This document shows positions 1,641 to 58,394 of a stretch of DNA of 64,000 nt, one piece after another. Under the pieces are notes generated by a model that made no database searches, was not told the DNA's origin, and was given only the letters and a program-made list of their open reading frames with translations. Origin of the DNA: an uncultured Acidobacteriaceae bacterium. Its GTDB lineage: Bacteria; Acidobacteriota; Terriglobia; Terriglobales; Acidobacteriaceae. Within the stretch, counting starts at the first letter, position 1, and each line of letters opens with the position of its first letter. The stretch spans positions 445,129 to 509,128 of the forward strand of contig CAVYPY010000003.1 of assembly GCA_963770525.1 (NCBI GenBank), given 5' to 3'. A program made the position numbers and the translations under genes.

Positions 1641-2677
1641 CCCTGTGTTCCCCCTGCGTGCGTTGTCTCGTGCGCCAGCGCCTCAATCACTGCATCCGCG
1701 AAGGCCGCGGTTCCCGCTGTTCCACCCACATCGCGGGTCAGGGTCTTCTTTGCGGAATACGTTGCTTCAAGGGCCGCGTGTAAGCGATCAGCGGCTTCCG
1801 CCTCATCAATGTGGCGCAGCATCAGAACCGCCGACTGCAGCAAAGCCGTCGGATTCGCGATGTCTTTGCCGGCAATGTCGGGCGCCGAGCCATGCACCGC
1901 TTCGAATATGGCAGCTTCCGCCCCCAGGTTCGCTCCCGGCACCAGTCCCAGGCCTCCGACAAAGGCCGCGCACAGATCGCTGACGATATCGCCGTAGAGA
2001 TTCTCGAGCAGCAGCGTGTCGTACTGGTATGGATTCATCACCAGCTGCATACAGGTGTTATCGATGATGTGCTCGCCGTAGGTGATGTCCGGGTATCCTT
2101 TGGCCACATCGCGTGCACAGCGCAAGAACAGGCCGTCGGACATCTTCATGATGTTGGCTTTGTGGATGGCATGGATACGGCGCCGTCCATGCTTCGCCGC
2201 ATATTCAAAGGCGAACTTCGCAATGCGCGTTGAGGCCTTCTCGGTGATCACCTTCAGCGACTCGATGACGCCAGGCACAACCTCATGTTCCAGGCCGACG
2301 TACAGTCCCTCGGTGTTCTCACGAATGATGATCAGATCCACATTGGGGTAGCGCGTATCGAGCCCGGGCAGGTTTTTGATGGGCCGGAAGTTGGCAAACA
2401 GCTCGAACTTCTTCCGCAGCGTGACGTTGATCGAGGCGAATCCGCCGCCGACCGGTGTCGTCACCGGACCCTTCAAAGCCACGCGGTTCCGCTCGATCGA
2501 GGCGTAAAGTTCCTTCGGGATATATTCGCCGTGCTTTTCGAAAGCCCCGGCTCCGGCGGCGAAGCGCTCCCATGCGAATCGAACGCCGGTCGCTTCGAGA
2601 ATCCGGACCACCGCGTCGGTGACTTCCGGGCCGATGCCGTCACCGGGGATCAGCGTAATGGTGTGTGTCTTCCCCAC
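1637..2677 (-). CDS. NAD-dependent isocitrate/homoisocitrate dehydrogenase (beta-decarboxylating dehydrogenase family, IDH3-like)
   Basis: 346-aa ORF. Motifs: ITLIPGDGIGPEV, IIRENTEGLY, NLYGDIVSDL, FEAVHGSAPDIAGK. Confidence 0.85.
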   Translation of the reverse strand: MGKTHTITLIPGDGIGPEVTDAVVRILEATGVRFAWERFAAGAGAFEKHGEYIPKELYASIERNRVALKGPVTTPVGGGFASINVTLRKKFELFANFRPIKNLPGLDTRYPNVDLIIIRENTEGLYVGLEHEVVPGVIESLKVITEKASTRIAKFAFEYAAKHGRRRIHAIHKANIMKMSDGLFLRCARDVAKGYPDITYGEHIIDNTCMQLVMNPYQYDTLLLENLYGDIVSDLCAAFVGGLGLVPGANLGAEAAIFEAVHGSAPDIAGKDIANPTALLQSAVLMLRHIDEAEAADRLHAALEATYSAKKTLTRDVGGTAGTAAFADAVIEALAHETTHAGGTQG

Positions 2678-2707
2678 ATTTCTCCTTGGATGAGTTGTCG
2701 AGCCGGA

Positions 2708-3193
2708 TCAGGCCTGCTTCTTTTTGGGATGCTTGTCGCTGTGCTGGTTCAGCAGCTGCTCCAGCTCTTCCTTAAATTCGCGAACGTCTTTGAAATCCCG
2801 ATAGACGCTGGCGAAACGGATGTAAGCGACGGTGTCCAGCGCCTTCAGCCGCTCCATAATCAGCTCGCCGATTTCCGAGGTGGTTCGCTCGCGCTCGGTG
2901 GACTCGGTGACGAAGGCCTCTGTTTCATCGACCAGCTGTTCCAGCTTGCCGGCGGAAATCGGCCGCTTCTCGCAGGCGTGCAGCAGCCCGCTTAATACCT
3001 TCTGGCGCTCGAATTTCTCCCGGCGCCCATCCTTCTTCACCACCATGTAGGGGATTTCGTCGATTCGCTCGTAGGTGGTAAACCGGCGGTTGCACCGCTC
3101 GCATTCGCGCCGCCTGCGGATGGAGTCGGCCTCCCTGCTCTCCCGCGAATCAATGACGCGGTCCTGGGCAAACCCGCAGTAAGGACATTTCAT
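2708..3193 (-). CDS. nrdR: Transcriptional repressor NrdR
   Basis: 161 aa. N-terminal zinc ribbon MKCPYCG...CERC followed by an ATP-cone (VVKKDGRREKFERQKV...). Confidence 0.95.
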   Translation of the reverse strand: MKCPYCGFAQDRVIDSRESREADSIRRRRECERCNRRFTTYERIDEIPYMVVKKDGRREKFERQKVLSGLLHACEKRPISAGKLEQLVDETEAFVTESTERERTTSEIGELIMERLKALDTVAYIRFASVYRDFKDVREFKEELEQLLNQHSDKHPKKKQA

Positions 3194-3316
3194 CGGTCTG
3201 CTTTGATTCTAGCAGCGCCTGCATCAGAACGCGCTCCGGCGCTGATGTCCCGCTTTGTGCAATTGTCAGGGTGTTCGAATCGGGCTATCGTGATTCGCAA
3301 CGCATCTTATCCGACT

Positions 3317-3781
3317 ATGAGCAAAGATTCGACACGCAGCATCATGAAAGGCGCGCTCGCCGGATTAATCGGCGGCCTGGCCGGAGCCGCGGCGAAAATG
3401 ATCGCCGAGCAGCTCTTCCCGCCGCGCGTACAGGGACAGACGCCGCCTCCGGTGGTTCTCGCCGAACAGGTCGCCCGGCGTCCCCTCACCGAGAGCGATC
3501 GCCAAATGGCCATGCAGGGCATTCACTGGATTTTCGGCGCCCTGGCCGGAGCCGTCTACGGCGTCATGGTGGAGTACGAGCCTTCACTGGGCGCCTGGCG
3601 CGGGGCAGCGTTCGGCATTACGCTCAACCGGATCACGCATGAATCCCTGCTGCCGAAGCTGGGTCTGTCGGCTCCTCCCGGGCAACAGCCCACCCAGGAG
3701 CGCATCAGCGAGTGGGCGACGCACGCAGCCTACGGCGTAGCGACGGATGCTGTCCGGCGCGCCGTTCGACGCGCTCTCTGA
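3317..3781 (+). CDS. Small membrane protein (DUF1440-like)
   Basis: ORF 3203..3781. The internal ATG at 3317 (MSKDSTRSIMKGALAGLIGGLAGAAAKMIAEQ) is the likely start. Glycine-rich hydrophobic segments. No catalytic motif recognised. Confidence 0.45.
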   Translation: MSKDSTRSIMKGALAGLIGGLAGAAAKMIAEQLFPPRVQGQTPPPVVLAEQVARRPLTESDRQMAMQGIHWIFGALAGAVYGVMVEYEPSLGAWRGAAFGITLNRITHESLLPKLGLSAPPGQQPTQERISEWATHAAYGVATDAVRRAVRRAL

Positions 3782-47199: not shown

Positions 47200-47425
47200 G
47201 ACGGCGTGGGCAAGAGCGATCACAGGGGCATTGTAAATCAGGAACGTGGAGAGCCATGGTGGAGGGGCGAGTGCGGTCCCGTTTCGACACTGATTTCGGC
47301 GCTGCTGTTACTTCAGAATGCTGGGTCTGAGCGAAATTCTCTTGCTGTTCATGGTCCACCGCGATACTGGGCCGGAGAATGTATCTGATACGTCGGGCCT
47401 TGCAGACGGGTTTCGCGAGGATTCC

Positions 47426-48835
47426 ATGAGCCAGAGCGTTTCGATTGCAGTAGTCGGTTCCGGGTACGTGGGATTGGTGGCGGCCGCCTGCTTCGCGGAG
47501 ATCGGACACCGCGTGGTGTGCGTCGATAACGACGAGGCGAAAGTCGGTGTTCTGCAACAGGGCGGAATTCCGATCCACGAGATGTATTTGCCGGAGTTGC
47601 TGGGGCGGCATCGCGGCCAATCGCTGACGTTTACGACGGACCTGCGGGGGGCTACCCAGGAAGCCCAGGCGGTTTTTATTGCTGTCGGCACACCCCAGAG
47701 CGATTCGGGCTGCGCCGATTTGTCCTATGTAGACGCGGTGGCCAGCGAAATCGCTCGGGCGATCGATGACTACAAGGTGATCGTGGAGAAGAGCACGGTT
47801 CCCGTCTATACGAACGAGTGGATTCGGCGGGTGATTGAACGAAATGGCGTACACCGGCAACTCTTTGAAGTCACCTCCAATCCCGAGTTCCTGCGCGAAG
47901 GAACAGCGGTGGCGGATTTCCTGCATCCGGAGAGGATTGTTCTGGGCACGCAGACTGAGCGGGCAGCCGAGCTGCTGCGGAAGATCTACGAGCCGCTGAT
48001 TTCGGGCGCTTATTATCGAACCGCCGGAGCGGTGCCCGGGATGCGGCAGGAGAGCGATCCGCCGCCGCTCCTGCAGACATCCACGAAGGCGGCGGAGATC
48101 ATTAAGCACGCCTCGAATGCCTTTCTGGCGACCAAGATTTCGTTCATCAACGTTGTTGCCAATATCTGCGAGACGGCCGGAGCCGATGTGAGGGAGGTCG
48201 TACGTGGACTCGGCATGGACAGCCGTATCGGTCCGCGGTTTCTGGAGCCGGGCATCGGTTATGGCGGATCGTGCTTCCCCAAGGATGTGGCCGCCTTCCG
48301 GCATGTGGCCGAGCAGATGGGAGTGGATTTCAGCCTGCTGCGGGAGGTGGAGAAGATCAATACGGAGCAGAGGAGGCGCTTCTTTCAGAAAGTGCGCGCA
48401 GCCCTGTGGACCTTCCGCGGCAAGAAGATCGGGGTTTTGGGGCTGGCATTCAAGGGCGGGACGGACGATATCCGGGAATCACCGGCGGTTGATATCGTGC
48501 GGCAACTGCTGCTGGAGGGCGCACGCGTGACCGCATATGACCCCGCGGCGGCTGAGCGGGCGAAGGAAGTGCTGCCGGCAGGACCGCAGATGTGCTACGC
48601 CGACGACGCCTATGCCGCGGCCCAGGATGCCGATGCCCTGCTGATTCTGAACGAGTGGGAAGAATTCGGCCAGCTGGATCTGAAGCGGGTCCACCGTGTG
48701 CTGCGTTACCCCATCATCATCGACGGGCGCAATCTCTATGAGCCGGACGCGATGGCGCAGCAGGGGTTCACGTACCTGAGCGTCGGACGGCCGGGAACGT
48801 CGCACACGCGGGATGTCGGGGTGGGGCTGTCCTGA
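47426..48835 (+). CDS. ugd: UDP-glucose 6-dehydrogenase
   Basis: Motifs: IAVVGSGYVGLVAAACFAE, GGSCFPKD. The ATG at 47426 (MSQSVS) is preferred to the track start 47318. Confidence 0.9.
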   Translation: MSQSVSIAVVGSGYVGLVAAACFAEIGHRVVCVDNDEAKVGVLQQGGIPIHEMYLPELLGRHRGQSLTFTTDLRGATQEAQAVFIAVGTPQSDSGCADLSYVDAVASEIARAIDDYKVIVEKSTVPVYTNEWIRRVIERNGVHRQLFEVTSNPEFLREGTAVADFLHPERIVLGTQTERAAELLRKIYEPLISGAYYRTAGAVPGMRQESDPPPLLQTSTKAAEIIKHASNAFLATKISFINVVANICETAGADVREVVRGLGMDSRIGPRFLEPGIGYGGSCFPKDVAAFRHVAEQMGVDFSLLREVEKINTEQRRRFFQKVRAALWTFRGKKIGVLGLAFKGGTDDIRESPAVDIVRQLLLEGARVTAYDPAAAERAKEVLPAGPQMCYADDAYAAAQDADALLILNEWEEFGQLDLKRVHRVLRYPIIIDGRNLYEPDAMAQQGFTYLSVGRPGTSHTRDVGVGLS

Positions 48836-49012
48836 AGGCGTTCAAATCGCTATCGCCCGCCGAGGCTGTAAGGGGCGTGATGTGCAGGTCGGCACTCCCA
48901 CAGTGATAATTTGAATACCTGTGATCCGTCGTCCGCAAAAACCCGAGACTCGTCTAAATTCCGATCCGGGTTCAGGGCGACCCCTGCAATCCGAGCGCGC
49001 CCCGGGAGAACC

Positions 49013-50080
49013 ATGATCGAACGCGTGCTGATCTACCGTCTGGGGAGTCTGGGCGATACCGTCGTGGCCTTGCCGGCGCTGCACCTGGTGGAGCGGGCCT
49101 TCCCCGGCGCAGAACGACGTCTTCTCACGAACATGCCGACGCACTCCAAAGCACCGGCGGCATTTGCCGTTTTAGAGGGTTCGGGGCTGGTTCACGGGTT
49201 TATGGATTATCCATGGAGGACGCGCAGCTTCGGCGATTTAGCGCGACTTTGGTGGAAGATCGTGCGATTTCGTCCCCAGGTTGTGGTTTATCTGATGGGC
49301 CAGCGCAACACGGAAAGCCGGGACCGATGGTTTTTTCGCCTGTGCGGGGTGTGCGAGGTGATTGGCCTGCCGACAGGAGATCTGGCAGAGCCGTTGTATG
49401 ACCCGGCCACCGGGGTTTGGGAGCACGAGGGAGCACGGCTGGCGCGCTGCCTGCGCAGTCGCCTCGGCGAAGTGGATCTCCAGGACCCGGCCAACTGGGA
49501 TTTGCGGCTGACCGAGGCGGAAGAGCGAAAGGCTGCAGAAGTACTGATTCCCGCCGGAAATCGTCCGATCGTTACGTGCGGTCCGGGCACCAAGATGCAG
49601 GCGAAGGACTGGGGACAGGAGAATTGGCGCCAGTTGCTAAGCCGGCTGAGCCGCGAATTCCCGAACCATGCTCTGGTGCTGGTGGGCGCGAAGGAAGACG
49701 CAGCCGCGGCGGATTATGCAGCCGAAGAATGGGGTGGACCGATCATCAATGTATGTGGAAAGCTGACCCCTCGCGAGACGGCGGGAGTTCTGCGGCGAGC
49801 AGAGCTTTTTCTCGGACCGGACAGCGGGCCGATGCATCTGGCAGCCGCTTATGGGGTGCCCTGCGCCATTCCGTTTGCGGCGCTGGACAGGGCGGGACGC
49901 TGGTTCCCGATCGGCAGCCGCCACCGCCTGATTTACCACCATGTCGATTGCGAAAACTGCCGGCTGACCGTGTGTATTGAGGAGCGCAAAAAGTGCCTGA
50001 CCTCGATTACCGTGGAGGAGATGATGACAGCAGCGCTCGAGGCGTGGCGGGAAGGACAAAGGGTTCCCTGTGAGCGCTGA
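49013..50080 (+). CDS. Glycosyltransferase family 9 (heptosyltransferase-like)
   Basis: Motifs: [23 protein letters not shown] ... KDWGQENW ... [22 protein letters not shown] lies upstream of the ATG at 49013. Confidence 0.8.
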
Positions 50081-50573
50081 AGCAAGAATGGTCCCGCGCT
50101 CTCCGGAAGAGAAGATTCTGGAATGGGCAGAAGCGCGAGTTCGAGTGACCGAATGGCGGACAGCCGGACTGAAGAATGTATTCACGAACGGGTGCTTCGA
50201 TTTGCTCCACCTGGGACATGTGACACTCCTGGATCAGGCACGACGTGAGGGCGATCGGCTGATTGTGGGCATCAACAGCGACGATTCAGTCCGATCGCTG
50301 AAAGGGCCATCGCGGCCGGTGCTACGCGAGGAAGCGCGGGCGCGGGTCCTGGCAGGACTGGAGGCGGTGGATGCTGTGGTGATTTTCGATGAGCCCACCC
50401 CGCTGCAATTGATCGAAGCGCTGCGTCCGGATGTGCTGGTGAAGGGGGGGGACTATGCAGGAGAAGAGATTGTGGGTGGACCGGAAGTGCGGTTGTGGGG
50501 AGGCAAAGTCTTATTTGTGCCTTTTGTTGAAGGGTTCAGCACGACGGAGATCATTGCACGCGCGCGGGAGTAG
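50070..50573 (+). CDS. HldC/RfaE-domain-II-type sugar-1-phosphate nucleotidyltransferase (cytidylyltransferase fold)
   Basis: Sequence: [22 protein letters not shown]...[19 protein letters not shown]...VKGGDY. The start is either the GTG at 50070 or the ATG at 50088. Confidence 0.8.
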
Positions 50574-50586
50574 CCCCCGGCGCAGG

Positions 50587-50949
50587 CTACCGGGCTTGGG
50601 AGCGGCCTTGTTCCTCAAGAAAGGCCTCGATGCGTGAACAATCGGGATCGTAGAAGACGGAGCGATCATCAATGAGGAAATCGTAGCGGGGCTTACCCAT
50701 CCAGAGTTCGTGATAGCGCACGCCCCAGCCGGCGAGCTGGTCCTCGGTGAAAGCGCGTCCGATGCGCTCCGTCTCTTCACGGTTCCCCTGGGTCCGACCC
50801 ATAAAACGGCTGGTGTGCAGGACGATGGTGAAGCCGCGGTCGTAAAGTCGATTGACCAGAGCGATCATGGCGGGGTGGGGCTGTGCGTCTTCATAGTCGC
50901 CTTCCATCTGGTCGCACAAGACCCCATCGATATCGAAGCAAACCCTCAT
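50587..50949 (-). CDS. Small capless HAD-superfamily phosphatase
   Basis: Motifs: FDIDGVL (motif I), HTSR (II), GKP...LIDD (III/IV). ATGA overlap with the upstream gene. Confidence 0.7.
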   Translation of the reverse strand: MRVCFDIDGVLCDQMEGDYEDAQPHPAMIALVNRLYDRGFTIVLHTSRFMGRTQGNREETERIGRAFTEDQLAGWGVRYHELWMGKPRYDFLIDDRSVFYDPDCSRIEAFLEEQGRSQAR

Positions 50950-51617
50950 GAAGACATCCAGCCCTGGAAATCTTTGAGGAAGCCCTGGACGGATTTGTCC
51001 GTCGCTGGATGCGCGGCCATCTGCTCAAGGATTTTGGCTCCGACAGTGACGATATGGCCGCCAGCCATATGCGCCTCGAGGACGTCGGTCTGGAGGCGGA
51101 TGCTGCCGGCGATAATCTCCGCCTTGTGACCGGCCTGGTCGAAGATGCGACGCGTGTTACCGATGACCCGCACCGGATCGCCGCCGATGTCCTTGAGCCG
51201 GCAGTGAAAGACAGAGACATAGCTGGCACCGCTGTTAGCGGCGAGCACGCACTGCTCCTCGGTGAAGATGCAGGTGCAGTTGACGCGGATCCCGGCTTTG
51301 GAGAGCCCGTAGATGGCTTTCAGTTCGTCCCAGCCAATGGGGATTTTGATGTTGAGGCCGGAATAACCGATCTTGTCCATGATGTCCTTGCCCTGGGCGA
51401 TCATTTCGTCGGCTTTGGTAGCGAAGACTTCCACGCTGAGAGGCAGTTTGCGGCCATCTGCTTCGATCAGCTTCGCAATCTTTTTGATGTGCTCGTAGAA
51501 ATTGGCTTTGGGCTCCTTCGCCAGCAGAGACGGGTTGGTGGTGATGCCGGAGAGATGGCCGCGCGCCAATCCGTTTTCGACGTCCTGGAGGTTGGCCGAG
51601 TCGAGGAAAATCTTCAC
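50946..51617 (-). CDS. Transaldolase / fructose-6-phosphate aldolase family enzyme (short TalC/FSA type)
   Basis: Motifs: MKIFLDSANL...GITTNPSL...NIKIP (Schiff-base Lys region)...YVSVF. Confidence 0.85.
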   Translation of the reverse strand: MKIFLDSANLQDVENGLARGHLSGITTNPSLLAKEPKANFYEHIKKIAKLIEADGRKLPLSVEVFATKADEMIAQGKDIMDKIGYSGLNIKIPIGWDELKAIYGLSKAGIRVNCTCIFTEEQCVLAANSGASYVSVFHCRLKDIGGDPVRVIGNTRRIFDQAGHKAEIIAGSIRLQTDVLEAHMAGGHIVTVGAKILEQMAAHPATDKSVQGFLKDFQGWMSS

Positions 51618-52450
51618 GCAGGTTGCTCCTGTTTTGGGTTGAGTGGGAGGGAGTCGACGTCGATGTGGCGATAGGTCTGGCCATCTTCGACGAGATAGGA
51701 ATCGGAATCGGAGTCGCGCGTAGAGACTTCGAGGATGACGGTGTCCTCGAGGCCGATGCGCATATGCATGACGCCGGGGCGGACATCGTAGCTTTGTCCG
51801 GCCATCATGACGATGCTGCGATTCTCGGCACGGCCGATGCGCAGGCCGACCTTCAGCAGGCCGGAATGGATGTAGTAGCTCTCGCTTTTTTCCACGTGAT
51901 ATTCGAGGCTGCTTTGCCCGCCCTTCTGGACAAAAATGCGTTTGGCAGCGACGTCTTCGCTGAGGATGGTCTCGATGCGGCCCCAGTATTTTTCGCGGAC
52001 GTCGGTGGTGGGCTGGCCGATGAGGGGAATCGAAGCCGAATCCAGAGAGCGGAAGGCCGCAGCCGCGGCCTCATCGGTTTCGAGACGGATGGAGCGGAGA
52101 CCTTCGGGAGTGCGAGGGCCGAAGAGATAGATGGCGGCACCGGAGTGACTGGCGGCGGCGTGGGGGAAGAATGCGGGAATGGGCAGGAGCTGGCCGGCGC
52201 GGACGATGCCAGCCTGGGGATTGCCCGCCTGATCGATGCTGCGCAGAAGGACTTCGCCGGATTCCACAACGGCGTGGAATTTGCCGGCGGCGAGGATGTG
52301 CAGCGGCTGAGCGGCGCCGGGGAGGAGGTCGACACGATACATCGAGAACTGCGGCAGCTCGGTCAGGGAGGTGACGCCGCCCCACGAGAACGAGGCGGCC
52401 TGAGGCTGATTGATGTGGCGGACCTGATCGAGGGTCAATCCGTAAGCCAT
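51614..52450 (-). CDS. Bicupin protein whose C-terminal half resembles the type II phosphomannose-isomerase cupin
   Basis: The stretch EKYWGRIETILSEDVAAKRIFVQKGGQSSLEYHVEKSESYYIHSG...GVMHMRIG...ILEVSTRD resembles the RPWG..F.VKRI.V.PG..LSLQ.H..R.EHW pattern of PMI-type cupins. Confidence 0.6.
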   Translation of the reverse strand: MAYGLTLDQVRHINQPQAASFSWGGVTSLTELPQFSMYRVDLLPGAAQPLHILAAGKFHAVVESGEVLLRSIDQAGNPQAGIVRAGQLLPIPAFFPHAAASHSGAAIYLFGPRTPEGLRSIRLETDEAAAAAFRSLDSASIPLIGQPTTDVREKYWGRIETILSEDVAAKRIFVQKGGQSSLEYHVEKSESYYIHSGLLKVGLRIGRAENRSIVMMAGQSYDVRPGVMHMRIGLEDTVILEVSTRDSDSDSYLVEDGQTYRHIDVDSLPLNPKQEQPA

Positions 52451-52468: not shown

Positions 52469-53431
52469 TTACAGGCCGAGGGCCGGCGCGAGGTCGGTCT
52501 TCCTCGGCGGAATCGTACCGTGGATCTGCACGGCGAGGCCAGCCCAGGCGTTGGCCAGTTGCAGGGCTGCCTCAGGATCGTCGAGACCGGCGAGACAAAA
52601 GGCGGAAAGAAAGGCGTCGCCCGCGCCGGTTGTGTCGGTGACGGTAACGGCCCGGGCAGGGGCCTGAAAGACGGAGGAGCCATTCTGGAAGATAGCCCCG
52701 TCTTCGCCCAGCTTGACGACGATGCGGCTGGTGTCGAGTGCGCGGTTCAGGACCGCGAAGGAGCCGGGAGCTGTGGACGGGGTAAAACCCGGATCGATGC
52801 AGCGGGCTTCTCGCAGGTTAAGGACCATGACGCAGCCGCCGCGGTAGAGGGCGTGATTGCTGGCGGTCTGCGAGACCTGCGAGTCCACATAGACGGTTTT
52901 TTGTGCAGCATGCAGTCGGGGCAGGAGCGAAGTCAGGAGATCGGTGGAGAGCAGGCCGTGGCGGTAATCGGAGATGATGACGATGTCGGTGCCGGGCAGT
53001 GCAGCTTCCACCAGGGCAAGAACCTGGTCGCCGACAGTGGCGGAGATGGGGGCGTCGTCGCGCTGGTCGAGCTGGAAGAGTTTGTAGCCGTCGACCCAGA
53101 AGCGATGCTTGACGGTGGTGGGACGCGCGGGATCCTCCACAGGGAGCAGACTCAGATGCGGCGCAGCGAACTGCCGGACGTGGGCGGCTTCCTCATCGGC
53201 GCCGATCAGCGTGAGGAACTGCACGGAAGCACCGAGTTCGAGGAGGTTGCGAGCGACCAGGGCCGCACCTCCCAGCGAATGCTTTACTTCCCTGCGGCGA
53301 GCAACGATCGTAGGCGTTTCGGCGGAGAGGCCGAGCGCGGTGCCGTAAGTATAGATATCGAGGATGGTATCCCCGATCAGCAGCACTCGCCTGCGGTTCA
53401 GTCTTTGAAGAATGGTTTCCAGTGTGTTCAA
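52469..53431 (-). CDS. PfkB-family sugar kinase, HldA/RfaE-domain-I-like
   Basis: Motifs: RVLLIGDTILDIYTYG...SAETPTIV...GGAALVARNLLELG...DTTGAGDAF. By eye it is collinear with the E. coli HldE N-terminal domain. Confidence 0.8.
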   Translation of the reverse strand: MNTLETILQRLNRRRVLLIGDTILDIYTYGTALGLSAETPTIVARRREVKHSLGGAALVARNLLELGASVQFLTLIGADEEAAHVRQFAAPHLSLLPVEDPARPTTVKHRFWVDGYKLFQLDQRDDAPISATVGDQVLALVEAALPGTDIVIISDYRHGLLSTDLLTSLLPRLHAAQKTVYVDSQVSQTASNHALYRGGCVMVLNLREARCIDPGFTPSTAPGSFAVLNRALDTSRIVVKLGEDGAIFQNGSSVFQAPARAVTVTDTTGAGDAFLSAFCLAGLDDPEAALQLANAWAGLAVQIHGTIPPRKTDLAPALGL

Positions 53432-53491: not shown

Positions 53492-54385
53492 TCAGTGGAT
53501 CCGAGCCGATTCATGCGACGGAGATTGTGGCGATTCGCCGCGCTTAATGCGTTGAATGACATTCGTGGAGGAGTAACCGCGAACCAGAGGGAAAATCTTG
53601 ACCTCAATGTCCTCGGGAACTTCATCCTGGGCGCGGACCTCTTCGGCGAGCCATTCGCCGCCCTTCACCACGATGGCGGGATGAAGCGATTCGATGAGCG
53701 CGGTTGGCCGCAGATCATCGAAGACGACTACCTCATCGACAAAGCGCAGTGCCTGGAGAACGGCCTTGCGGTTCTCCTGGGAGTTGACGGGGCGACCTTC
53801 GCCTTTGAGAGCGCGCACTGAGGCGTCGGAATTGATACCGACGACCAAACGGTCGCCGAGATTACGGGACCAGTTCAGAAGCTCGATGTGCCCCTGGTGC
53901 AGGATGTCGAAAACACCGTTCGTGAAGACCACCTTGCCCCGAGGATCGGGGGCGATTCGCTCGACCCGCCGCACATGGCGGCGCTCTCCGAACTTCTCCG
54001 AAAGCCAGCGGTGGCTGATCTCGATGTTCTCCTGATCGCTGCAGATCCAGGAGCCGAGGCAGAGTACATTAGCGTCATTGTGCTCGCGGCACTTGCCGGC
54101 GCTTTCGTAATTGTGCACAACAGCGGCGCGCACTTTGGGCAGCTTGTTCGCGGCAATGCTCATCCCAATCCCGGTACCACAGATGAGGATTCCACGATCG
54201 CAGTCGCCGTTCTGAATCAGCGTGCCCACCAGTTGGGCGTAGTCGACATAATCGACGGAAACCGACGAAGAAAACGGGCCAAGATCGAGGCAGCGGTGAC
54301 CGGCTTCGGTCAGGGAAGCTTTGATTCTCGACTTCAGGTCAACACCGTTGTGGTCGGCAGCGAGACAAACGATCATTTCGCTCAT
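53492..54385 (-). CDS. Fusion protein: RpiB/LacAB-type sugar-phosphate isomerase (N) + HldC-type nucleotidyltransferase (C)
   Basis: N-terminal half: IVCLAADHNGVDLK...ILICGTGIGMSIAANK...RAAVVHN...HNDANVLCLG. C-terminal half: VVFTNGVFDILHQGHIELL...VGINSDASVRALKGEGRPV...VKGGEW. ATG at 54385 preceded by AGGAGA. Confidence 0.8.
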   Translation of the reverse strand: MSEMIVCLAADHNGVDLKSRIKASLTEAGHRCLDLGPFSSSVSVDYVDYAQLVGTLIQNGDCDRGILICGTGIGMSIAANKLPKVRAAVVHNYESAGKCREHNDANVLCLGSWICSDQENIEISHRWLSEKFGERRHVRRVERIAPDPRGKVVFTNGVFDILHQGHIELLNWSRNLGDRLVVGINSDASVRALKGEGRPVNSQENRKAVLQALRFVDEVVVFDDLRPTALIESLHPAIVVKGGEWLAEEVRAQDEVPEDIEVKIFPLVRGYSSTNVIQRIKRGESPQSPSHESARIH

Positions 54386-54538: not shown

Positions 54539-55816
54539 TCAGCCGGCGGAAGCCGGCGCCTTTTCCTGCTGCAGCATCTGGCGGATGCCGCGCAGGGCCT
54601 GGCGGGTGCGCTCCTCGTTTTCGATCAGGGCGAAGCGAACGTGGCCGTCTCCGTACTCGCCAAAGCCGATGCCGGGACTGACGGCGACCTTCGCTTCCTG
54701 CAGCATGAGTTTGGAGAACTCGAGGGATCCCATGGAGCGCCATTGCTCCGGGATGGGCGCCCAGACGAACATGGTGGCGCGCGGCAAGGGGACGTCCCAG
54801 CCCAGCTTGTTCAGACCGCTGACCAGGCAGTCGCGGCGACGCTGATAGATGTCGCGGATTTCGCCAACGCAGTCCTGCGGACCTTCGAGAGCAAGGATGG
54901 CCGCCACCTGAATGGGCGTGAAGGTGCCGTAGTCGAAGTAGCTCTTGAGACGGGCGAGCGCGGAGACCAGCTCGGGATTGCCCACCATAAAACCCACTCG
55001 CCAGCCGGGCATGTTGTAGCTCTTCGACAGCGTGAAGAACTCAACGGCGATGTCTTTGGCGCCGGGGACTTCGAGGATGGAGGGAGCGCGGTAGCCGTCG
55101 AAAACGATATCGGCGTAGGCGAGATCGTGGACGATCCAGATGTTGTGCTGGCGACAGAGAGCGACGACCCGCTCGAAAAAAGCCAGGTCGACGCACTGGG
55201 TCGTCGGGTTGGCGGGGAAGTTGAGGATGAGCATCTTCGGACGCGGGACCATGAGCGGGATCACCTGTTCCAGCTCGGCGAGGAAGTTGTCCGCGCTGTG
55301 AATGGGGACGCTGTGAATGGTGGCGCCGGCGATCACCGGCCCGTAGATGTGGATGGGGTAGCTGGGATTGGGCACGAGAACCACGTCGCCCTGATCGAGA
55401 GTGGCCAGACAGAGATGGGCAATGCCTTCCTTGGAACCAATGGTAACGATGGATTCCGTTTCGGGATCGAGGGTGATGCCGTAACGGGAGGCATACCACT
55501 TCGTAATGGCACGACGGAGTCGCGGGATGCCTTTGGAGATGGAGTAGCGATGGGTTTCGGGGCGGCGCGCCGCCTCGATCATCTTGTCCACGATATGGCG
55601 AGGAGTGGCGCCGTCGGGATTGCCCATGCCGAAGTCGATGATGTCCTCGCCACGGCGACGGGCAGCGGCTTTGAGCTCGCCGGTAATGTTGAAGACGTAG
55701 GCGGGCAGGCGGCGAATACGCGGGAATTCGTGCACGGCGTCCTCGTGGAGAATTGTTTTGGCTAAAGGTGCAGAAGTTGCGGCCGGCGGTGGCAGCTCGA
55801 CCCCATCTTTCACCAC
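54539..55816 (-). CDS. Class I/II PLP-dependent aminotransferase (AlaC/AspC-like)
   Basis: Motifs: [40 protein letters not shown] (PLP Lys). Confidence 0.85.
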
Positions 55817-55848
55817 ATCTTAACGAGGTCCGATGAAGAGCGGGCATC

Positions 55849-56454
55849 TCAGAGAAGGTTCGCACCACTTTCGTCATGTATGGCCTGAAGGAATTGCTGC
55901 AGGATTGCAATTCGGGACGCTGCCAGCCGGCGGGCGCTCTCGAGGCGGAGTTTGCCCGGCAGATCCTCGACATTGCGTCGCAGAACGGCGACCGCATCGG
56001 TAAAGCGAGGAAAACGGGTATCGCGGCCGACTTTGCTGACCGCGCGCAGAATGCCAATGGCGCCGAGCTGCTCGAGGATGTCGGCGTCGCGGAGGATGGT
56101 GGCCTCGATCGTCTGCGGCTCGTCGCCGGGCTGATGTTGCCGGAAGCAGGTGAGGACGCCGGGGATTTTCCCTTCGGGGAACTCCATTTGGCGGAGGATG
56201 CCGGGGACATGGGAACAGGCGTAAGCCACGTGATCCCAATGGGCGAGTTCTTCCGGATTATCGGGGCGATGACCGACAAAGACGCCGAGATCGTGCAACC
56301 AGGCAGCGGCAGCGACAATTTCGCAGTCATGGGGGATGTCGGCGCCGATCAGCCGGGTCAATTCGATCAGCCGGGGCTGATGCCCGAATTTATCCACAGG
56401 GCGGGCCTGGGTTTCGACGAAATGGGCCAGCCGATCAAGGACAGGGGAACTCAT
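55849..56454 (-). CDS. HD-domain phosphohydrolase
   Basis: Motifs: AAWLHDLG ... RDADILEQLGAIG. Confidence 0.75.
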   Translation of the reverse strand: MSSPVLDRLAHFVETQARPVDKFGHQPRLIELTRLIGADIPHDCEIVAAAAWLHDLGVFVGHRPDNPEELAHWDHVAYACSHVPGILRQMEFPEGKIPGVLTCFRQHQPGDEPQTIEATILRDADILEQLGAIGILRAVSKVGRDTRFPRFTDAVAVLRRNVEDLPGKLRLESARRLAASRIAILQQFLQAIHDESGANLL

Positions 56455-56876
56455 GATACCTTTGTAATCTTCCGCAAGCCATTTTGCAGGGGCAGAATAC
56501 CGGGGGATGCAGAGGCTTCTCTCTTTTGGTTATCGGTTTGTGACATTTTTCTCTGGAAAGAGTTCACGCACTACTTTATTTTGCTACTGCCGCGGTTCGC
56601 GGAGGTGGCAGGAACCTCCGAAAACGGCAAAGTTGTTGTATCGTGCTTAAAAGACCAAAAATCCTTAGTCGTCGGGGCCGATTTGTTTTCCGCGGAGTTG
56701 CACAGAAGTTTGGATTCGCCGGAAATTCCGTCGCCAGGAAGAAACTGTAGCCGCTCTTGAATGCTGCAATCGTTAGCAGGAGACGGATTTCCAGACCGGG
56801 CCGAGACAGAAACGGCACAATCAACCCGCAGCCGAAGACCTGACCGGGCCGGATAAGGCCGGCCAACCAGAAGGAT

Positions 56877-58394
56877 ATGGCGACCTCAGAGTATCTGCGG
56901 AACCGACAGGACAGAGACCGACCTCAGGGTCCGGTGCTGCAACTGCCAGCCAGCCCACGGCGATCGGGGATTGGACCCTCGACCGTAGCCTCTGCGCTGG
57001 TGATGCTCAACGATGTTTTGGCGATCGTGGTGGCGTTTGGCCTGGCTGTCCTGCTGCGGATGCTCGTGACAAGGTGGGATCTGATTCCCGGAGCCGGCCT
57101 GGGATCGGTGCCGAACACGCCGCTGGACCTGTTCTATCTCGGATGGTTCCTGCTGGCGTATGTGCTGGTGGCGCGACGCTACGGGCTGTACGCCACCATT
57201 CCGTCAGGAACCGGAATGCACGAGCTGCGCCTGGTATTGCAGGGGTGCATGAACGCAGGGCTGTTGCTTTGCGGCGCGCTGTTCATGTTCCACGGTCTGG
57301 CAATCTCGCGCATTCTGGTGCTGCTTCTGGTGATAACCGCATCCCTGACGCTGTGCGTGCGCCGCTCGGTGCGGCGGTATGCGTTGTACCGGCAATTCGC
57401 GCAGGGGATCGAGCTGCGCAACATCCTGATCCTGGGAACGAATCAGCTCAGCTATGCGATGAGCCGGCATATCCGGATGCACAGCCGGCTGGGATACCGG
57501 TTCGCAGGATTCGTCGCTGCTCCGGGGTCGGCGGTCAGCCGGGAAATCGCCCCACAAGAGATTCTGGGCAGCACCGACAGGATGCGGCAGCTGGTGCGGC
57601 AGAATTTCATCGACGAAGTGGTGATCGCCGAATATTACCCTACAGAAAGTGCGATTCGGCTGGTGCAGGAGGCGCGGGAAATGGACGTGGATGTGCGCGC
57701 GATCTCCGGCTATTACAGCGATTTGTCAACGAATGCACCGGTGGAATTCCTGGGCATCTTTCCGCTATGCCCGCTGCACCGGCGCACACCGCGCATGATC
57801 GGGCTGCTCGGCAAGCGAGGCGTGGATATTCTTCTCTCTCTGGGGGCCCTGCTGGTCGCTGCGCCGCTGATGCTCCTCATTGCGCTGGCGGTGAAGCTGG
57901 AATCGCAGGGGCCGGTCTTCTATATTTCGGAGCGCATCGGCAAGCGGGGGCGGGTATTTCCCTGCTTTAAATTTCGCACCATGGTGAATGAAGCGGAAAA
58001 GATGAAGCAGGATCTGACCGCCCTGAACGAGAGGGACGGAGTCCTGTTCAAGGTGAAGAACGACCCGCGGGTGACGCGGCTGGGCAGGATCCTTCGGAAA
58101 TACAGCCTGGATGAGCTTCCGCAGTTCCTGAATGTGCTGCGCGGCGAGATGAGTATTGTGGGGCCGCGGCCGCCGATTGCCAGCGAGGTGGAGAAGTACG
58201 AACTGGAGCACATGCGCCGGCTCGAAGTGCTGCCTGGACTGACAGGCCTCTGGCAGGTGCAGGCCCGGCACGATCCCTCCTTCGCCAAGTACATCGCCCT
58301 GGATACGGCTTACGTGGAGAACTGGAGTTTCTGGCTCGATCTGCGCATCCTGGCGCAAACGGCCAATGTCGTCCTGCGCGGAACCGGTTCCTGA
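56877..58394 (+). CDS. Polyprenyl-phosphate glycosylphosphotransferase (exopolysaccharide priming sugar transferase, WbaP/EpsB-like)
   Basis: N-terminal TM helices. C-terminal Bac_transf motifs: KFRTM, DELPQFLNVLRGEMSIVGPRPP. Confidence 0.9.
   Translation: MATSEYLRNRQDRDRPQGPVLQLPASPRRSGIGPSTVASALVMLNDVLAIVVAFGLAVLLRMLVTRWDLIPGAGLGSVPNTPLDLFYLGWFLLAYVLVARRYGLYATIPSGTGMHELRLVLQGCMNAGLLLCGALFMFHGLAISRILVLLLVITASLTLCVRRSVRRYALYRQFAQGIELRNILILGTNQLSYAMSRHIRMHSRLGYRFAGFVAAPGSAVSREIAPQEILGSTDRMRQLVRQNFIDEVVIAEYYPTESAIRLVQEAREMDVDVRAISGYYSDLSTNAPVEFLGIFPLCPLHRRTPRMIGLLGKRGVDILLSLGALLVAAPLMLLIALAVKLESQGPVFYISERIGKRGRVFPCFKFRTMVNEAEKMKQDLTALNERDGVLFKVKNDPRVTRLGRILRKYSLDELPQFLNVLRGEMSIVGPRPPIASEVEKYELEHMRRLEVLPGLTGLWQVQARHDPSFAKYIALDTAYVENWSFWLDLRILAQTANVVLRGTGS

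What the first reader, a model, noticed from the sequence alone, without database searches (positions are those of the whole stretch)
53492..54385. RpiB/LacAB isomerase fused to an HldC-type nucleotidyltransferase in one polypeptide
One uninterrupted 297-aa reading frame has two halves.
- Residues about 1-150 carry the RpiB/LacAB signature (HNGVDLK, ILICGTGIGMSIAANK, HNDANVLCLG).
- Residues about 155-297 carry the cytidylyltransferase-fold signature (FTNGVFDILHQGHIELL, GINSDASVRALKG, VKGGEW).

In a heptose-type pathway these would be the first step (isomerase) and the fourth step (nucleotidyl transfer). The known bifunctional enzyme, HldE, fuses the kinase with the nucleotidyltransferase instead. 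A paralogous stand-alone nucleotidyltransferase sits 3 kb away at 50070-50573; by eye the two are about half identical over the core. That leaves open whether the fused copy is catalytic or a regulatory/scaffolding domain.
Basis: seen in the sequence. Interest (0 to 1): 0.6.

Follow-up and report, generated by a model that had tools for sequence, protein, structure and literature searches.

The report
RpiB–nucleotidyltransferase fusion in sugar-activation cassette
A real, conserved gene joins a ribose-phosphate-isomerase-type domain to a heptose-type nucleotidyltransferase, and it heads a mobile five-gene cassette in scattered bacteria and archaea that probably makes an uncharacterised activated seven- or eight-carbon sugar.

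Summary
One uninterrupted 297-codon frame lies on the minus strand (54385..53492). It holds a full RpiB/LacAB domain and a full HldC-like nucleotidyltransferase (NT) domain.

It is not an assembly artefact. The same architecture appears in over 100 protein clusters and about 45 species, including Acidobacteriota, Pseudomonadota, Verrucomicrobiota, Chloroflexota, CPR bacteria and DPANN archaea. All catalytic residues of both domains are invariant.

The fusion nearly always heads the same cassette:
- an HldA-like kinase;
- a metal-binding bicupin of mannose-6-P/lyxose-isomerase type;
- a true transaldolase;
- a small HAD phosphatase.

A GT9 glycosyltransferase is nearby in 32 of 45 loci.

This genome also has a housekeeping RpiB and a complete canonical hldD-gmhA-hldE operon, so the cassette is a second pathway.

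All 44 fused RpiB domains replace a phosphate-clamp arginine with tryptophan. They coexist with a separate ribose-5-phosphate isomerase even in 0.5-1.4 Mb genomes.

Best reading: the RpiB domain is a specialised isomerase standing in for GmhA, and the NT makes the final NDP-sugar. Whether the product is a heptose or an octose is unresolved, as is the bicupin's step. I found no paper on it; another first-stage note in this scan flagged the same cluster in this genome.

The parts
53492..54385 (-). Fusion gene: 297-aa RpiB-fold isomerase plus HldC-like nucleotidyltransferase (P0001)
   Evidence: One open frame with two full-length Pfam domains. The same architecture occurs in over 100 clusters and about 45 species.
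53948..54385 (-). RpiB/LacAB domain (residues 1-146). Catalytic Cys69 is encoded at 54179-54181; the family-specific Trp113 at 54047-54049.
   Evidence: - PF02502 E = 3.8e-48.
- NF004051 scores 161.8 bits, above its 135-bit cutoff.
- Best solved structure is C. thermocellum RpiB 3HE8/3PH3, E about 1e-32.
- D11, H12, C69, T71, H102, N103, R136, H137 and R140 are invariant.
- W113 and E134 are fusion-specific.
53540..53935 (-). HldC-like nucleotidyltransferase domain (residues 151-282)
   Evidence: - TIGR02199 scores 159.5 bits, below its 181.5-bit cutoff.
- Best solved structure is 5X9Q, deposited as 'putative cytidylyltransferase', E = 2.3e-29.
- H163-x-G-H166, N185-S-D187, K241-G242 and S272 are conserved.
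- The domain lies outside the canonical HldC/HldE clade.
52469..53431 (-). HldA-like PfkB kinase (320 aa, TTG start)
   Evidence: - TIGR02198 scores 181.7 bits, below its 345-bit cutoff.
- Best solved structure is HldA 4E84, E = 6.8e-29.
- It follows the fusion in nearly all loci.
51614..52450 (-). Bicupin (278 aa). The C-terminal cupin carries a conserved metal motif and is of mannose-6-P/lyxose-isomerase type.
   Evidence: - Motif (E/H)183-x-H185-x4-E190...H229.
- Weak Pfam hits to PF01050 in 14 of 22 members and PF07385 in 13 of 22.
- AF2 model pLDDT 88.5, bicupin fold.
- JGI names relatives 'mannose-6-phosphate isomerase-like'.
- It is fused to the HAD phosphatase in five other loci.
50946..51617 (-). 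Short transaldolase (223 aa, GTG start overlapping the bicupin stop)
   Evidence: - PF00923 E = 2.8e-44.
- Closest to true transaldolases: 3R8R scores 154 bits, against about 75 bits for FSA.
- Glu, Lys and Phe of the transaldolase type are present.
- The genome has three other Tal genes.
50587..50949 (-). Small HAD phosphatase (120 aa, DxDGV motif)
   Evidence: TIGR01689 E = 6.7e-10 and HAD-IIIA E = 1.5e-4. Conserved as the last cassette gene.
50070..50573 (+). Stand-alone canonical HldC, convergent with the cassette; its start overlaps the GT9 stop
   Evidence: - TIGR02199 scores 200.5 bits, above its cutoff.
- It clusters with the genome's own HldE NT at 99% support.
- It is 51% identical to the fused NT.
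48911..50080 (+). Divergent GT9 (heptosyltransferase-family) glycosyltransferase, the probable consumer of the product
   Evidence: - PF01075 E = 7.6e-23.
- GT9 genes lie next to the cassette in 32 of 45 loci across phyla.
- The genome's other GT9 scores higher (143 against 82 bits) and lies elsewhere.

Best explanation
The gene encodes a genuine bifunctional enzyme, and both halves are catalytic. It is the first gene of a self-contained, horizontally mobile five-gene cassette: fusion, HldA-like kinase, metal-binding bicupin, transaldolase and small HAD phosphatase. The cassette builds an ADP-heptose-like activated sugar of seven or eight carbons from central sugar phosphates.

Proposed order of steps (inferred, not shown):
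1. The transaldolase makes the ketose phosphate. This is either sedoheptulose-7-P from fructose-6-P plus erythrose-4-P, or octulose-8-P from fructose-6-P plus ribose-5-P.
2. The RpiB-fold domain, whose phosphate pocket is remodelled (Arg113 to Trp, Gly134 to Glu), converts the ketose phosphate to the aldose phosphate. It takes the place of the SIS-fold isomerases GmhA and LmbN.
3. The HldA-like kinase phosphorylates O-1.
4. The HAD phosphatase removes the distal phosphate.
5. The fused HldC-like domain joins the sugar-1-phosphate to a nucleotide.
6. An adjacent GT9 transferase uses the product.

The bicupin is a metal-dependent isomerase or epimerase that sets stereochemistry at a step not yet placed. 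Joining step 1 to the last step mirrors the known HldE (kinase-NT) and GmhA-HldE fusions.
For: **The fusion is real and under selection**
- It is a single frame with two full-length domains.
- More than 100 clusters at 90% identity share the architecture, as do about a dozen clusters at 50% identity and about 45 species in at least eight phyla, including archaea.
- Mean column identity is 62%, and every catalytic residue of both domains is invariant.

**A dedicated pathway**
- The order fusion, kinase, bicupin, transaldolase, HAD is kept across phyla.
- Rosetta-stone fusions link the parts: bicupin-HAD, RpiB-NT-NT and NT-RpiB-NT.
- GT9 is adjacent in 32 of 45 loci.

**A second pathway in this genome**
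- The genome also has a stand-alone RpiB, hldD-gmhA-hldE on contig C4, three other Tal genes and a higher-scoring GT9 elsewhere.
- The cassette kinase and NT score below the equivalog cutoffs, whereas the canonical copies score above them.
- The fused NTs lie outside the canonical HldC/HldE clade.

**The RpiB domain is specialised**
- Trp113 is present in 44 of 44 fused domains. Stand-alone RpiBs have Arg there in 27 of 36.
- That Arg is a phosphate-stabilising residue in T. cruzi RpiB (PMC4882579).
- A separate ribose-5-phosphate isomerase was found in 9 of 10 small cassette-bearing genomes of 0.5-1.4 Mb: a second stand-alone RpiB in 5 of 5 CPR genomes and 3 of 5 archaeal genomes, and RpiA in one more archaeal genome.
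- No GmhA-type SIS domain was found in 4 of 5 CPR genomes that carry the cassette.

**Precedent**
- NT enzymes fused with kinase, or with isomerase plus kinase, are known (Tang 2024, as summarised in PMC11461863).
Against: - No biochemistry exists for any member.
- The RpiB domain keeps Cys69 and two of the three clamp arginines. It is 45-50% identical to bona fide RpiBs and passes the NCBIfam RpiB subfamily cutoff. It could still be a plain ribose-5-P isomerase.
- The cassette holds a second candidate aldose-ketose isomerase, the bicupin. That could do the committed step and leaves the bicupin's role unexplained in this model.
- RpiB-family enzymes are known (from my own knowledge) for ribulose-5-P, allulose-6-P, tagatose-6-P and erythrulose-4-P, not for seven- or eight-carbon ketoses.
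- The tree is a quick tree on 139 columns with modest support (92% SH-aLRT).
- The MAGs used for the presence/absence counts are incomplete.
Confidence: 0.55

Rival explanations
1. Octose route with RpiB as precursor supplier. The RpiB domain simply makes ribose-5-P. The transaldolase condenses it with a dihydroxyacetone unit from fructose-6-P to give D-glycero-D-altro-octulose-8-P, as LmbR does in lincomycin biosynthesis. The PMI-like bicupin is then the octulose-to-octose isomerase. Kinase, phosphatase and the fused NT follow, giving an NDP-octose.
For: - Every one of the six catalytic domains gets a distinct, chemically sensible job.
- The enzyme logic matches the demonstrated LmbR/LmbN/LmbP/LmbK/LmbO pathway to GDP-octose (PMC5854111 and PMC4351081, citing Sasaki 2012 and Lin 2014).
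- The cassette enzyme is a true transaldolase, not an FSA.
- The only specific families the bicupin touches are aldose-ketose isomerases.
- The RpiB domain keeps the core RpiB active site.
- Two of five archaeal carriers showed no transketolase, so erythrose-4-P and sedoheptulose-7-P may be scarce there.
Against: - The invariant loss of clamp Arg113 and the gain of Glu134 are unexplained if the substrate is still ribose-5-P.
- Ribose-5-P is made in every cell, and 9 of 10 minimal carrier genomes already have another Rpi. A supplier domain kept invariant across phyla is hard to justify.
- The bicupin's links to isomerase families are weak (best E-values 1e-5 to 1e-6).
Confidence: 0.27
2. The fused NT domain is a non-catalytic regulatory or scaffolding copy, and the neighbouring stand-alone HldC does the chemistry.
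For: - A stand-alone, canonical-scoring HldC lies 3 kb away.
- Some relatives carry two NT domains in one protein.
- The fused NT scores below the TIGR02199 cutoff.
Against: - HxGH, NSD, KGG and the SST serine are conserved in 46 to 50 of the 50 fused NT domains compared, and invariant among the 26 full-length orthologues.
- Most cassettes outside Acidobacteriaceae have no second NT at all, so the fused NT must be the working one there.
- The stand-alone copy is a recent duplicate of the HldE NT and is confined to Acidobacteriaceae.
Confidence: 0.05
3. Assembly or annotation artefact: two adjacent genes merged by a missed stop or a frameshift.
For: None beyond the general possibility. Raw reads could not be consulted.
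Against: The same continuous frame, with an equally short linker, occurs in about 45 independently assembled genomes and in over 100 protein clusters.
Confidence: 0.01
4. A catabolic rare-sugar operon, allose- or ribose-type, in which RpiB acts as in the als regulon.
For: RpiB, a PfkB kinase and a cupin co-occur in some sugar-utilisation clusters (earlier scan notes listed).
Against: - The loci examined show no transporter or regulator typical of catabolic operons.
- A nucleotidyltransferase is fused to RpiB.
- The kinase is specifically HldA-like.
- GT9, GT4, flippase and Wzz genes surround the cassette.
Confidence: 0.03

Closest known systems
ADP-L-glycero-β-D-manno-heptose pathway (GmhA, HldA/HldE kinase, GmhB, HldC/HldE nucleotidyltransferase, HldD)
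   Same: - Same logic: isomerase, then anomeric kinase, then distal phosphatase, then nucleotidyltransferase.
- The kinase and NT are homologues of HldA and HldC.
- A GT9 transferase is the likely consumer.
- Non-consecutive steps are fused in one protein, as in HldE.
   Different: - The isomerase has the RpiB fold, not the SIS fold.
- The phosphatase is a 120-aa HAD that was not recognised as GmhB.
- A transaldolase and a metal-binding bicupin are obligatory extras, and there is no HldD.
- The kinase and NT score below the equivalog cutoffs, and the NT falls outside the canonical clade.
- The genome has the canonical operon separately.
Fused heptose nucleotidyltransferases ('HENases': NT alone, kinase-NT, isomerase/kinase/NT), Tang et al. 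Science 2024, as summarised in PMC11461863
   Same: An NT of the same superfamily is fused to another pathway enzyme. The group is widely distributed, including in archaea.
   Different: The three described subgroups do not include an RpiB-NT architecture. Here the fused isomerase belongs to an unrelated fold and the kinase is a separate gene.
Lincomycin GDP-D-erythro-α-D-gluco-octose pathway (LmbR transaldolase, LmbN isomerase, LmbP kinase, LmbK phosphatase, LmbO guanylyltransferase)
   Same: It is the only characterised nucleotide-sugar route that begins with a dedicated transaldolase and then follows the isomerase, kinase, phosphatase, NT logic (PMC5854111, PMC4351081).
   Different: - From my own knowledge, LmbN is a SIS-type isomerase and LmbO a different NT fold.
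- Homology of the cassette enzymes to LmbP, LmbK and LmbO was not tested.
- The Lmb pathway is an actinomycete antibiotic cluster. This cassette sits in cell-surface glycan loci of diverse bacteria and archaea.
Ribose-5-phosphate isomerase B (for example C. thermocellum RpiB, PDB 3HE8/3PH3; T. cruzi RpiB)
   Same: Same fold. The catalytic Cys/Thr/Asp/His set and two clamp arginines are kept. Identity is about 45-50%.
   Different: - Clamp Arg113 is an invariant Trp, and the Gly before the RH motif is an invariant Glu.
- The domain is C-terminally fused to an NT.
- It is always accompanied by a separate housekeeping Rpi where this was checked.

Membership tests
RpiB/LacA/LacB sugar-phosphate isomerase superfamily (PF02502 / TIGR00689) | Full-length domain match above the curated cutoffs | tested here: met
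   PF02502 scores 163.4 bits against a 24.7-bit cutoff. TIGR00689 scores 153.2 against 88.3, and NF004051 scores 161.8 against 135.
RpiB/LacA/LacB sugar-phosphate isomerase superfamily (PF02502 / TIGR00689) | Catalytic residues Asp, His, Cys(base), Thr, His and Asn | tested here: met
   D11, H12, C69, T71, H102 and N103 are invariant in 26 and in 44 fused sequences.
Ribose-5-phosphate isomerase B proper (equivalog TIGR01120, EC 5.3.1.6) | Score above the equivalog cutoff | tested here: not met
   127.8 bits against a cutoff of 138.65.
Ribose-5-phosphate isomerase B proper (equivalog TIGR01120, EC 5.3.1.6) | Complete phosphate clamp (Arg113, Arg137, Arg141 in T. cruzi numbering; PMC4882579) | tested here: not met
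   R136 and R140 are kept, but position 113 is Trp in 44 of 44 fused domains. Stand-alone RpiBs have Arg there in 27 of 36.
Ribose-5-phosphate isomerase B proper (equivalog TIGR01120, EC 5.3.1.6) | Interconverts ribose-5-P and ribulose-5-P | not testable with these tools
   Needs an enzyme assay or complementation of a laboratory E. coli rpiA rpiB double mutant.
HldC / RfaE domain II heptose-1-phosphate adenylyltransferase (TIGR02199) | Score above the equivalog-domain cutoff | tested here: not met
   159.5 bits against 181.5. The stand-alone HldC (200.5 bits) and the HldE NT (197.6 bits) of the same genome pass.
HldC / RfaE domain II heptose-1-phosphate adenylyltransferase (TIGR02199) | HxGH and C-terminal (F/L)xxGxSTT-type nucleotide-binding motifs | tested here: met
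   H163-Q-G-H166 and L-V-R-G-Y-S-S-T (S272) are present, and they are conserved in both the fused and the canonical groups.
HldC / RfaE domain II heptose-1-phosphate adenylyltransferase (TIGR02199) | Falls inside the canonical HldC/HldE clade | tested here: not met
   Quick ML tree. The 131 rows holding all HldE NTs and the Acidobacteriaceae stand-alone HldCs are separated from 49 of the 50 fused NTs by a branch with 92% SH-aLRT support. The careful search did not finish.
HldC / RfaE domain II heptose-1-phosphate adenylyltransferase (TIGR02199) | Uses D-glycero-β-D-manno-heptose-1-P and ATP | not testable with these tools
   Needs an enzyme assay.
HldE bifunctional kinase/adenylyltransferase (NF008454) | PfkB kinase domain fused N-terminal to the NT | tested here: not met
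   Only the NT part of the model matches (model positions 337-473; 147.9 bits against a 521-bit cutoff). The kinase is a separate gene.
Lincomycin-type NDP-octose pathway | Dedicated transaldolase plus isomerase, kinase, phosphatase and NT in one cluster | tested here: met
   All five activities are encoded in the cassette. This shows analogy of logic only.
Lincomycin-type NDP-octose pathway | Transaldolase uses ribose-5-P as acceptor to give octulose-8-P; the product is an octose nucleotide | not testable with these tools
   Needs in vitro reconstitution and mass spectrometry. Sequence homology to the Lmb proteins was not tested.

The most novel reading that the evidence does not exclude
The cassette is a primary-metabolism counterpart of the lincomycin octose route. 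It would make an ADP/NDP-activated eight-carbon aldose, or a heptose of non-manno configuration, using an RpiB-fold isomerase retuned for long-chain ketose phosphates. GT9-family transferases would then install this sugar in surface glycans of Acidobacteria, CPR bacteria and DPANN archaea. That would be a new nucleotide sugar and a new substrate class for both the RpiB and GT9 families.
Probability: 0.3. Interest if true: 0.8.

Novelty: new variant of a known kind. Interest (0 to 1): 0.6.

Why it matters
- **A new route to an activated higher sugar.** It would be a case of non-orthologous displacement in a textbook pathway, with an RpiB-fold isomerase replacing the SIS-fold GmhA, and possibly a new activated sugar.
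- **Relevance to innate immunity.** NDP-heptoses are innate-immune agonists and building blocks of LPS and glycoproteins (PMC11461863). A divergent pathway spread by horizontal transfer into CPR bacteria and DPANN archaea widens the range of organisms and structures to consider.
- **Better annotation.** Databases currently label these proteins inconsistently: 'RpiB/LacA/LacB isomerase', 'rfaE domain', 'ribose 5-phosphate isomerase B', 'hypothetical'. That hides the pathway.
- **Directly testable.** The cassette is small and self-contained, so it can be reconstituted in vitro or expressed in E. coli.

Tried and rejected
- **Primary LmbR/LmbN paper.** PMC3486926 is not held. I cited secondary accounts instead.
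- **Literature.** Searches for RpiB + heptose + nucleotidyltransferase, RpiB + sedoheptulose isomerase, and octose + nucleotide sugar found nothing on this fusion.
- **Bicupin fold.** Foldseek on the bicupin model returned only generic bicupins such as oxalate decarboxylase and vicilins, so fold alone did not assign a function. Only weak profile hits point to PMI or lyxose isomerase.
- **Tree.** The careful ML tree of NT domains did not finish within the time limit, so the quick tree was used.
- **Family sample.** A sample of 150 genomes from the same GTDB family found no other carrier. Only 1 of 18 congeners has the fusion. It is an accessory trait, and genus- or family-level synteny was uninformative.
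- **Transketolase census.** The census in archaeal carriers (3 of 5 have it) did not discriminate heptose from octose.
- **STTR5 rule.** I considered using the 'STTR5' arginine rule for NTP promiscuity (PMC11461863). The commentary's numbering was ambiguous, so I draw no conclusion about which nucleotide is used.
- **Rejected readings.** I rejected the frameshift artefact, an inactive NT domain and a catabolic allose-type operon (see rivals).
Full report
**1.

The frame lies on the minus strand, from ATG 54385 to the stop at 53492-53494, and encodes 297 aa. A GGAGA box sits 8 nt upstream of the ATG (read).

Pfam finds two full-length domains:
- LacAB_rpiB at residues 6-144, E = 3.8e-48;
- CTP_transf_like at residues 154-279, E = 2.7e-19.

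NCBIfam places the N-terminal half in the RpiB subfamily, 161.8 bits against a 135-bit cutoff. The C-terminal half is nearest rfaE domain II (HldC), 159.5 bits against a 181.5-bit cutoff, so it falls below the equivalog threshold.

The best solved structures are C. thermocellum RpiB (3HE8/3PH3) and 5X9Q, deposited as a 'putative cytidylyltransferase'. The stand-alone NT at 50070-50573 is 51% identical to the fused NT over 132 residues.

**2. It is not an artefact**

- The same two-domain protein heads more than 100 clusters at 90% identity. Sources name it inconsistently.
- About a dozen clusters at 50% identity cover both domains.
- A scan of one genome per species returned about 45 species with the full-length fusion. 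They include Acidobacteriaceae, Terracidiphilus, strain AB60, Bryobacterales, Stellaceae, Acetobacteraceae, Gammaproteobacteria, Longimicrobiales, Lacunisphaera, Dehalococcoidaceae, several CPR phyla, Woesearchaeota and a Methanosarcinales MAG.
- An alignment of 26 of these has 62% mean column identity, a short gap-free linker, and every catalytic residue of both domains invariant.
- An AlphaFold model gives two confident domains joined by a low-confidence linker (pLDDT 85.5, pTM 0.50). They are independent folding units with no predicted fixed interface.
- Raw reads could not be consulted.

**3. The context is a conserved, mobile cassette**

In the window the fusion is followed on the same strand by four genes:
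- an HldA-like PfkB kinase (53431..52469);
- a bicupin (52450..51614);
- a short transaldolase (51617..50946);
- a 120-aa HAD phosphatase (50949..50587).

The last three junctions are gaps of at most 18 nt or 4-nt overlaps.

tblastn of these proteins against the 45 fusion loci shows the same five genes, usually in the same order, across phyla. The 35 RpiB-only loci have none of them.

Variants tie the parts together:
- Bicupin-HAD fusions occur in five loci.
- RpiB-NT-NT and NT-RpiB-NT proteins exist.
- An extra class II aldolase/epimerase gene is present in 15 of 45 loci. It is absent from the window.
- A GT9 glycosyltransferase lies beside the cassette in 32 of 45 loci, with GT4, FkbM methyltransferase, MurJ-like flippase and Wzz genes nearby. 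These are surface-glycan loci.

The trait is accessory. It was found in 0 of 150 sampled genomes of the same family and in 1 of 18 congeners. Acidobacteriaceae carry two distinct cassette types, one 80-91% and the other about 53% identical to the window protein. This points to horizontal transfer.

**4. It is a second pathway in this genome**

- Contig C4 (3.8 kb) carries a complete canonical hldD-gmhA-hldE operon. HldD scores 349 bits, GmhA 205, the kinase 377 and the NT 198.
- A stand-alone RpiB lies 58 kb upstream of the window.
- There are three other Tal genes.
- A higher-scoring GT9 lies on another contig.
- The cassette's kinase (181.7 bits against a 345-bit cutoff) and NT fall below their equivalog cutoffs.

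In a quick ML tree, the 131 rows holding all HldE NTs and the Acidobacteriaceae stand-alone HldCs are split from 49 of the 50 fused NTs by a branch with 92% support. The window's stand-alone HldC groups at 99% support with the genome's own HldE NT, so it is a recent lineage-specific duplicate.

**5. What each domain probably does**

*NT domain.* The nucleotide-binding residues are conserved in both the fused and the canonical groups. Only E244 (canonical Asp), R251 (canonical Val/Ile) and P257 are fusion-specific. Most cassettes outside Acidobacteriaceae have no other NT. The fused NT is therefore the working enzyme.

*RpiB domain.* The catalytic set and two clamp arginines are kept. Position 113 is Trp in 44 of 44 fused domains, while stand-alone RpiBs have Arg in 27 of 36. 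The Gly before the RH motif is Glu in 41 of 44. Arg113 is one of three phosphate-stabilising arginines in T. cruzi RpiB (PMC4882579; see also PMC4783025).

In ten small carrier genomes of 0.5-1.4 Mb, nine also have a separate ribose-5-phosphate isomerase:
- a second stand-alone RpiB in 5 of 5 CPR genomes;
- a second stand-alone RpiB in 3 of 5 archaeal genomes;
- RpiA in one more archaeal genome.

Four of five CPR carriers show no GmhA-type SIS domain.

I infer that the fused domain is not a housekeeping or precursor-supply enzyme. It is more likely a retuned isomerase for a different, probably longer, ketose phosphate that fills the GmhA/LmbN role.

*Transaldolase.* It is of the true transaldolase type. 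It scores 154 bits to B. subtilis Tal against about 75 bits to FSA, and has Glu and Phe where FSA has Gln and Tyr (the residue rule is from my own knowledge).

*Bicupin.* It has a weakly conserved N-terminal cupin and a strongly conserved C-terminal cupin with a standard metal motif, (E/H)183-x-H185-x4-E190...H229. The only specific families it touches are mannose-6-P isomerase, D-lyxose isomerase and, marginally, cupin PGI. JGI names relatives accordingly. Fold search gives only generic bicupins. Its step is not placed.

**6. Mechanism and alternatives**

The well-supported core is that a bifunctional, doubly catalytic protein works in a dedicated NDP-sugar pathway analogous to ADP-heptose synthesis. 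I put this at about 0.85.

Within it I favour the RpiB domain as the committed isomerase (0.55). The main rival (0.27) follows the lincomycin logic:
1. RpiB supplies ribose-5-P.
2. The transaldolase makes octulose-8-P, as LmbR does (PMC5854111, PMC4351081).
3. The bicupin is the octulose isomerase.

This rival gives every domain a role but leaves R113W and the redundancy with housekeeping Rpi unexplained. Whether the product has seven or eight carbons, and which nucleotide is used, cannot be decided from sequence.

**7. Novelty**

Known NT fusions in this pathway are kinase-NT and isomerase(SIS)/kinase-NT (Tang 2024, as summarised in PMC11461863). I found no paper on an RpiB-NT fusion or on this cassette. 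It is a new variant of a known kind of pathway, with a fair chance of producing a new nucleotide sugar.

Another first-stage note in this scan flagged the same cluster in this genome (e1-2963978). It said the cluster has 'no GmhA, no HldD'. That is true of the cluster, but both genes exist elsewhere in the genome.

Noticed in passing
Own genome contig C4 (3843 bp): 51-1019, 1821-2267, 2363-3769: A complete canonical hldD-gmhA-hldE operon sits alone on a 3.8-kb contig. In the closest relative (L018, 91% identical fusion) an HldE gene lies on the opposite strand between the aminotransferase gene and the fusion gene. In the window those two genes are only about 150 bp apart.
   Followed up: partly
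L046:9797-10885, L051:4454-5551, L058:9828-10937; also L052 and L053 (376-380 aa ORFs): In Saccharibacteria, Doudnabacteria, an Acetobacteraceae MAG and some Acidobacteriaceae, the bicupin and the small HAD phosphatase are fused into one protein of about 365 aa. This is a second Rosetta-stone link within the cassette.
   Followed up: partly
P0086, P0091 (L042:7698-9014), P0102: Three-domain relatives exist. RpiB-NT-NT occurs in Woesearchaeota, where the extra NT is a duplicate of the fused NT. NT-RpiB-NT also occurs, where the N-terminal NT is of the canonical HldC type.
   Followed up: partly
for example L034, L036, L037, L043, L045, L051, L059, L061: A class II aldolase / L-ribulose-5-P-4-epimerase-family gene (PF00596) is inserted in the cassette in 15 of 45 loci. 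It is absent from the window. It may alter the stereochemistry of the sugar in those lineages.
   Followed up: no
window 50070-50080: The GTG start of the stand-alone HldC overlaps the end of the GT9 gene by 11 nt. This suggests translational coupling of the divergent GT9 with a canonical-type NT.
   Followed up: no
L052 (Acetobacteraceae MAG) versus L053/L058 (Acidobacteriaceae MAGs): The fused NT domains are almost identical across MAGs assigned to two phyla (terminal branch lengths 0 to 0.16 within one 100%-supported clade). The flanking genes (Wzz, GT9, MurJ) are also the same. This indicates either very recent inter-phylum transfer or a binning error.
   Followed up: no
window 54539-58394 and 47318-48835: The aminotransferase, HD-domain protein, WbaP-like sugar transferase and UDP-glucose dehydrogenase flanking the cassette are syntenic in about eight Acidobacteriaceae relatives. 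The cassette is embedded in a larger conserved surface-polysaccharide locus.
   Followed up: partly
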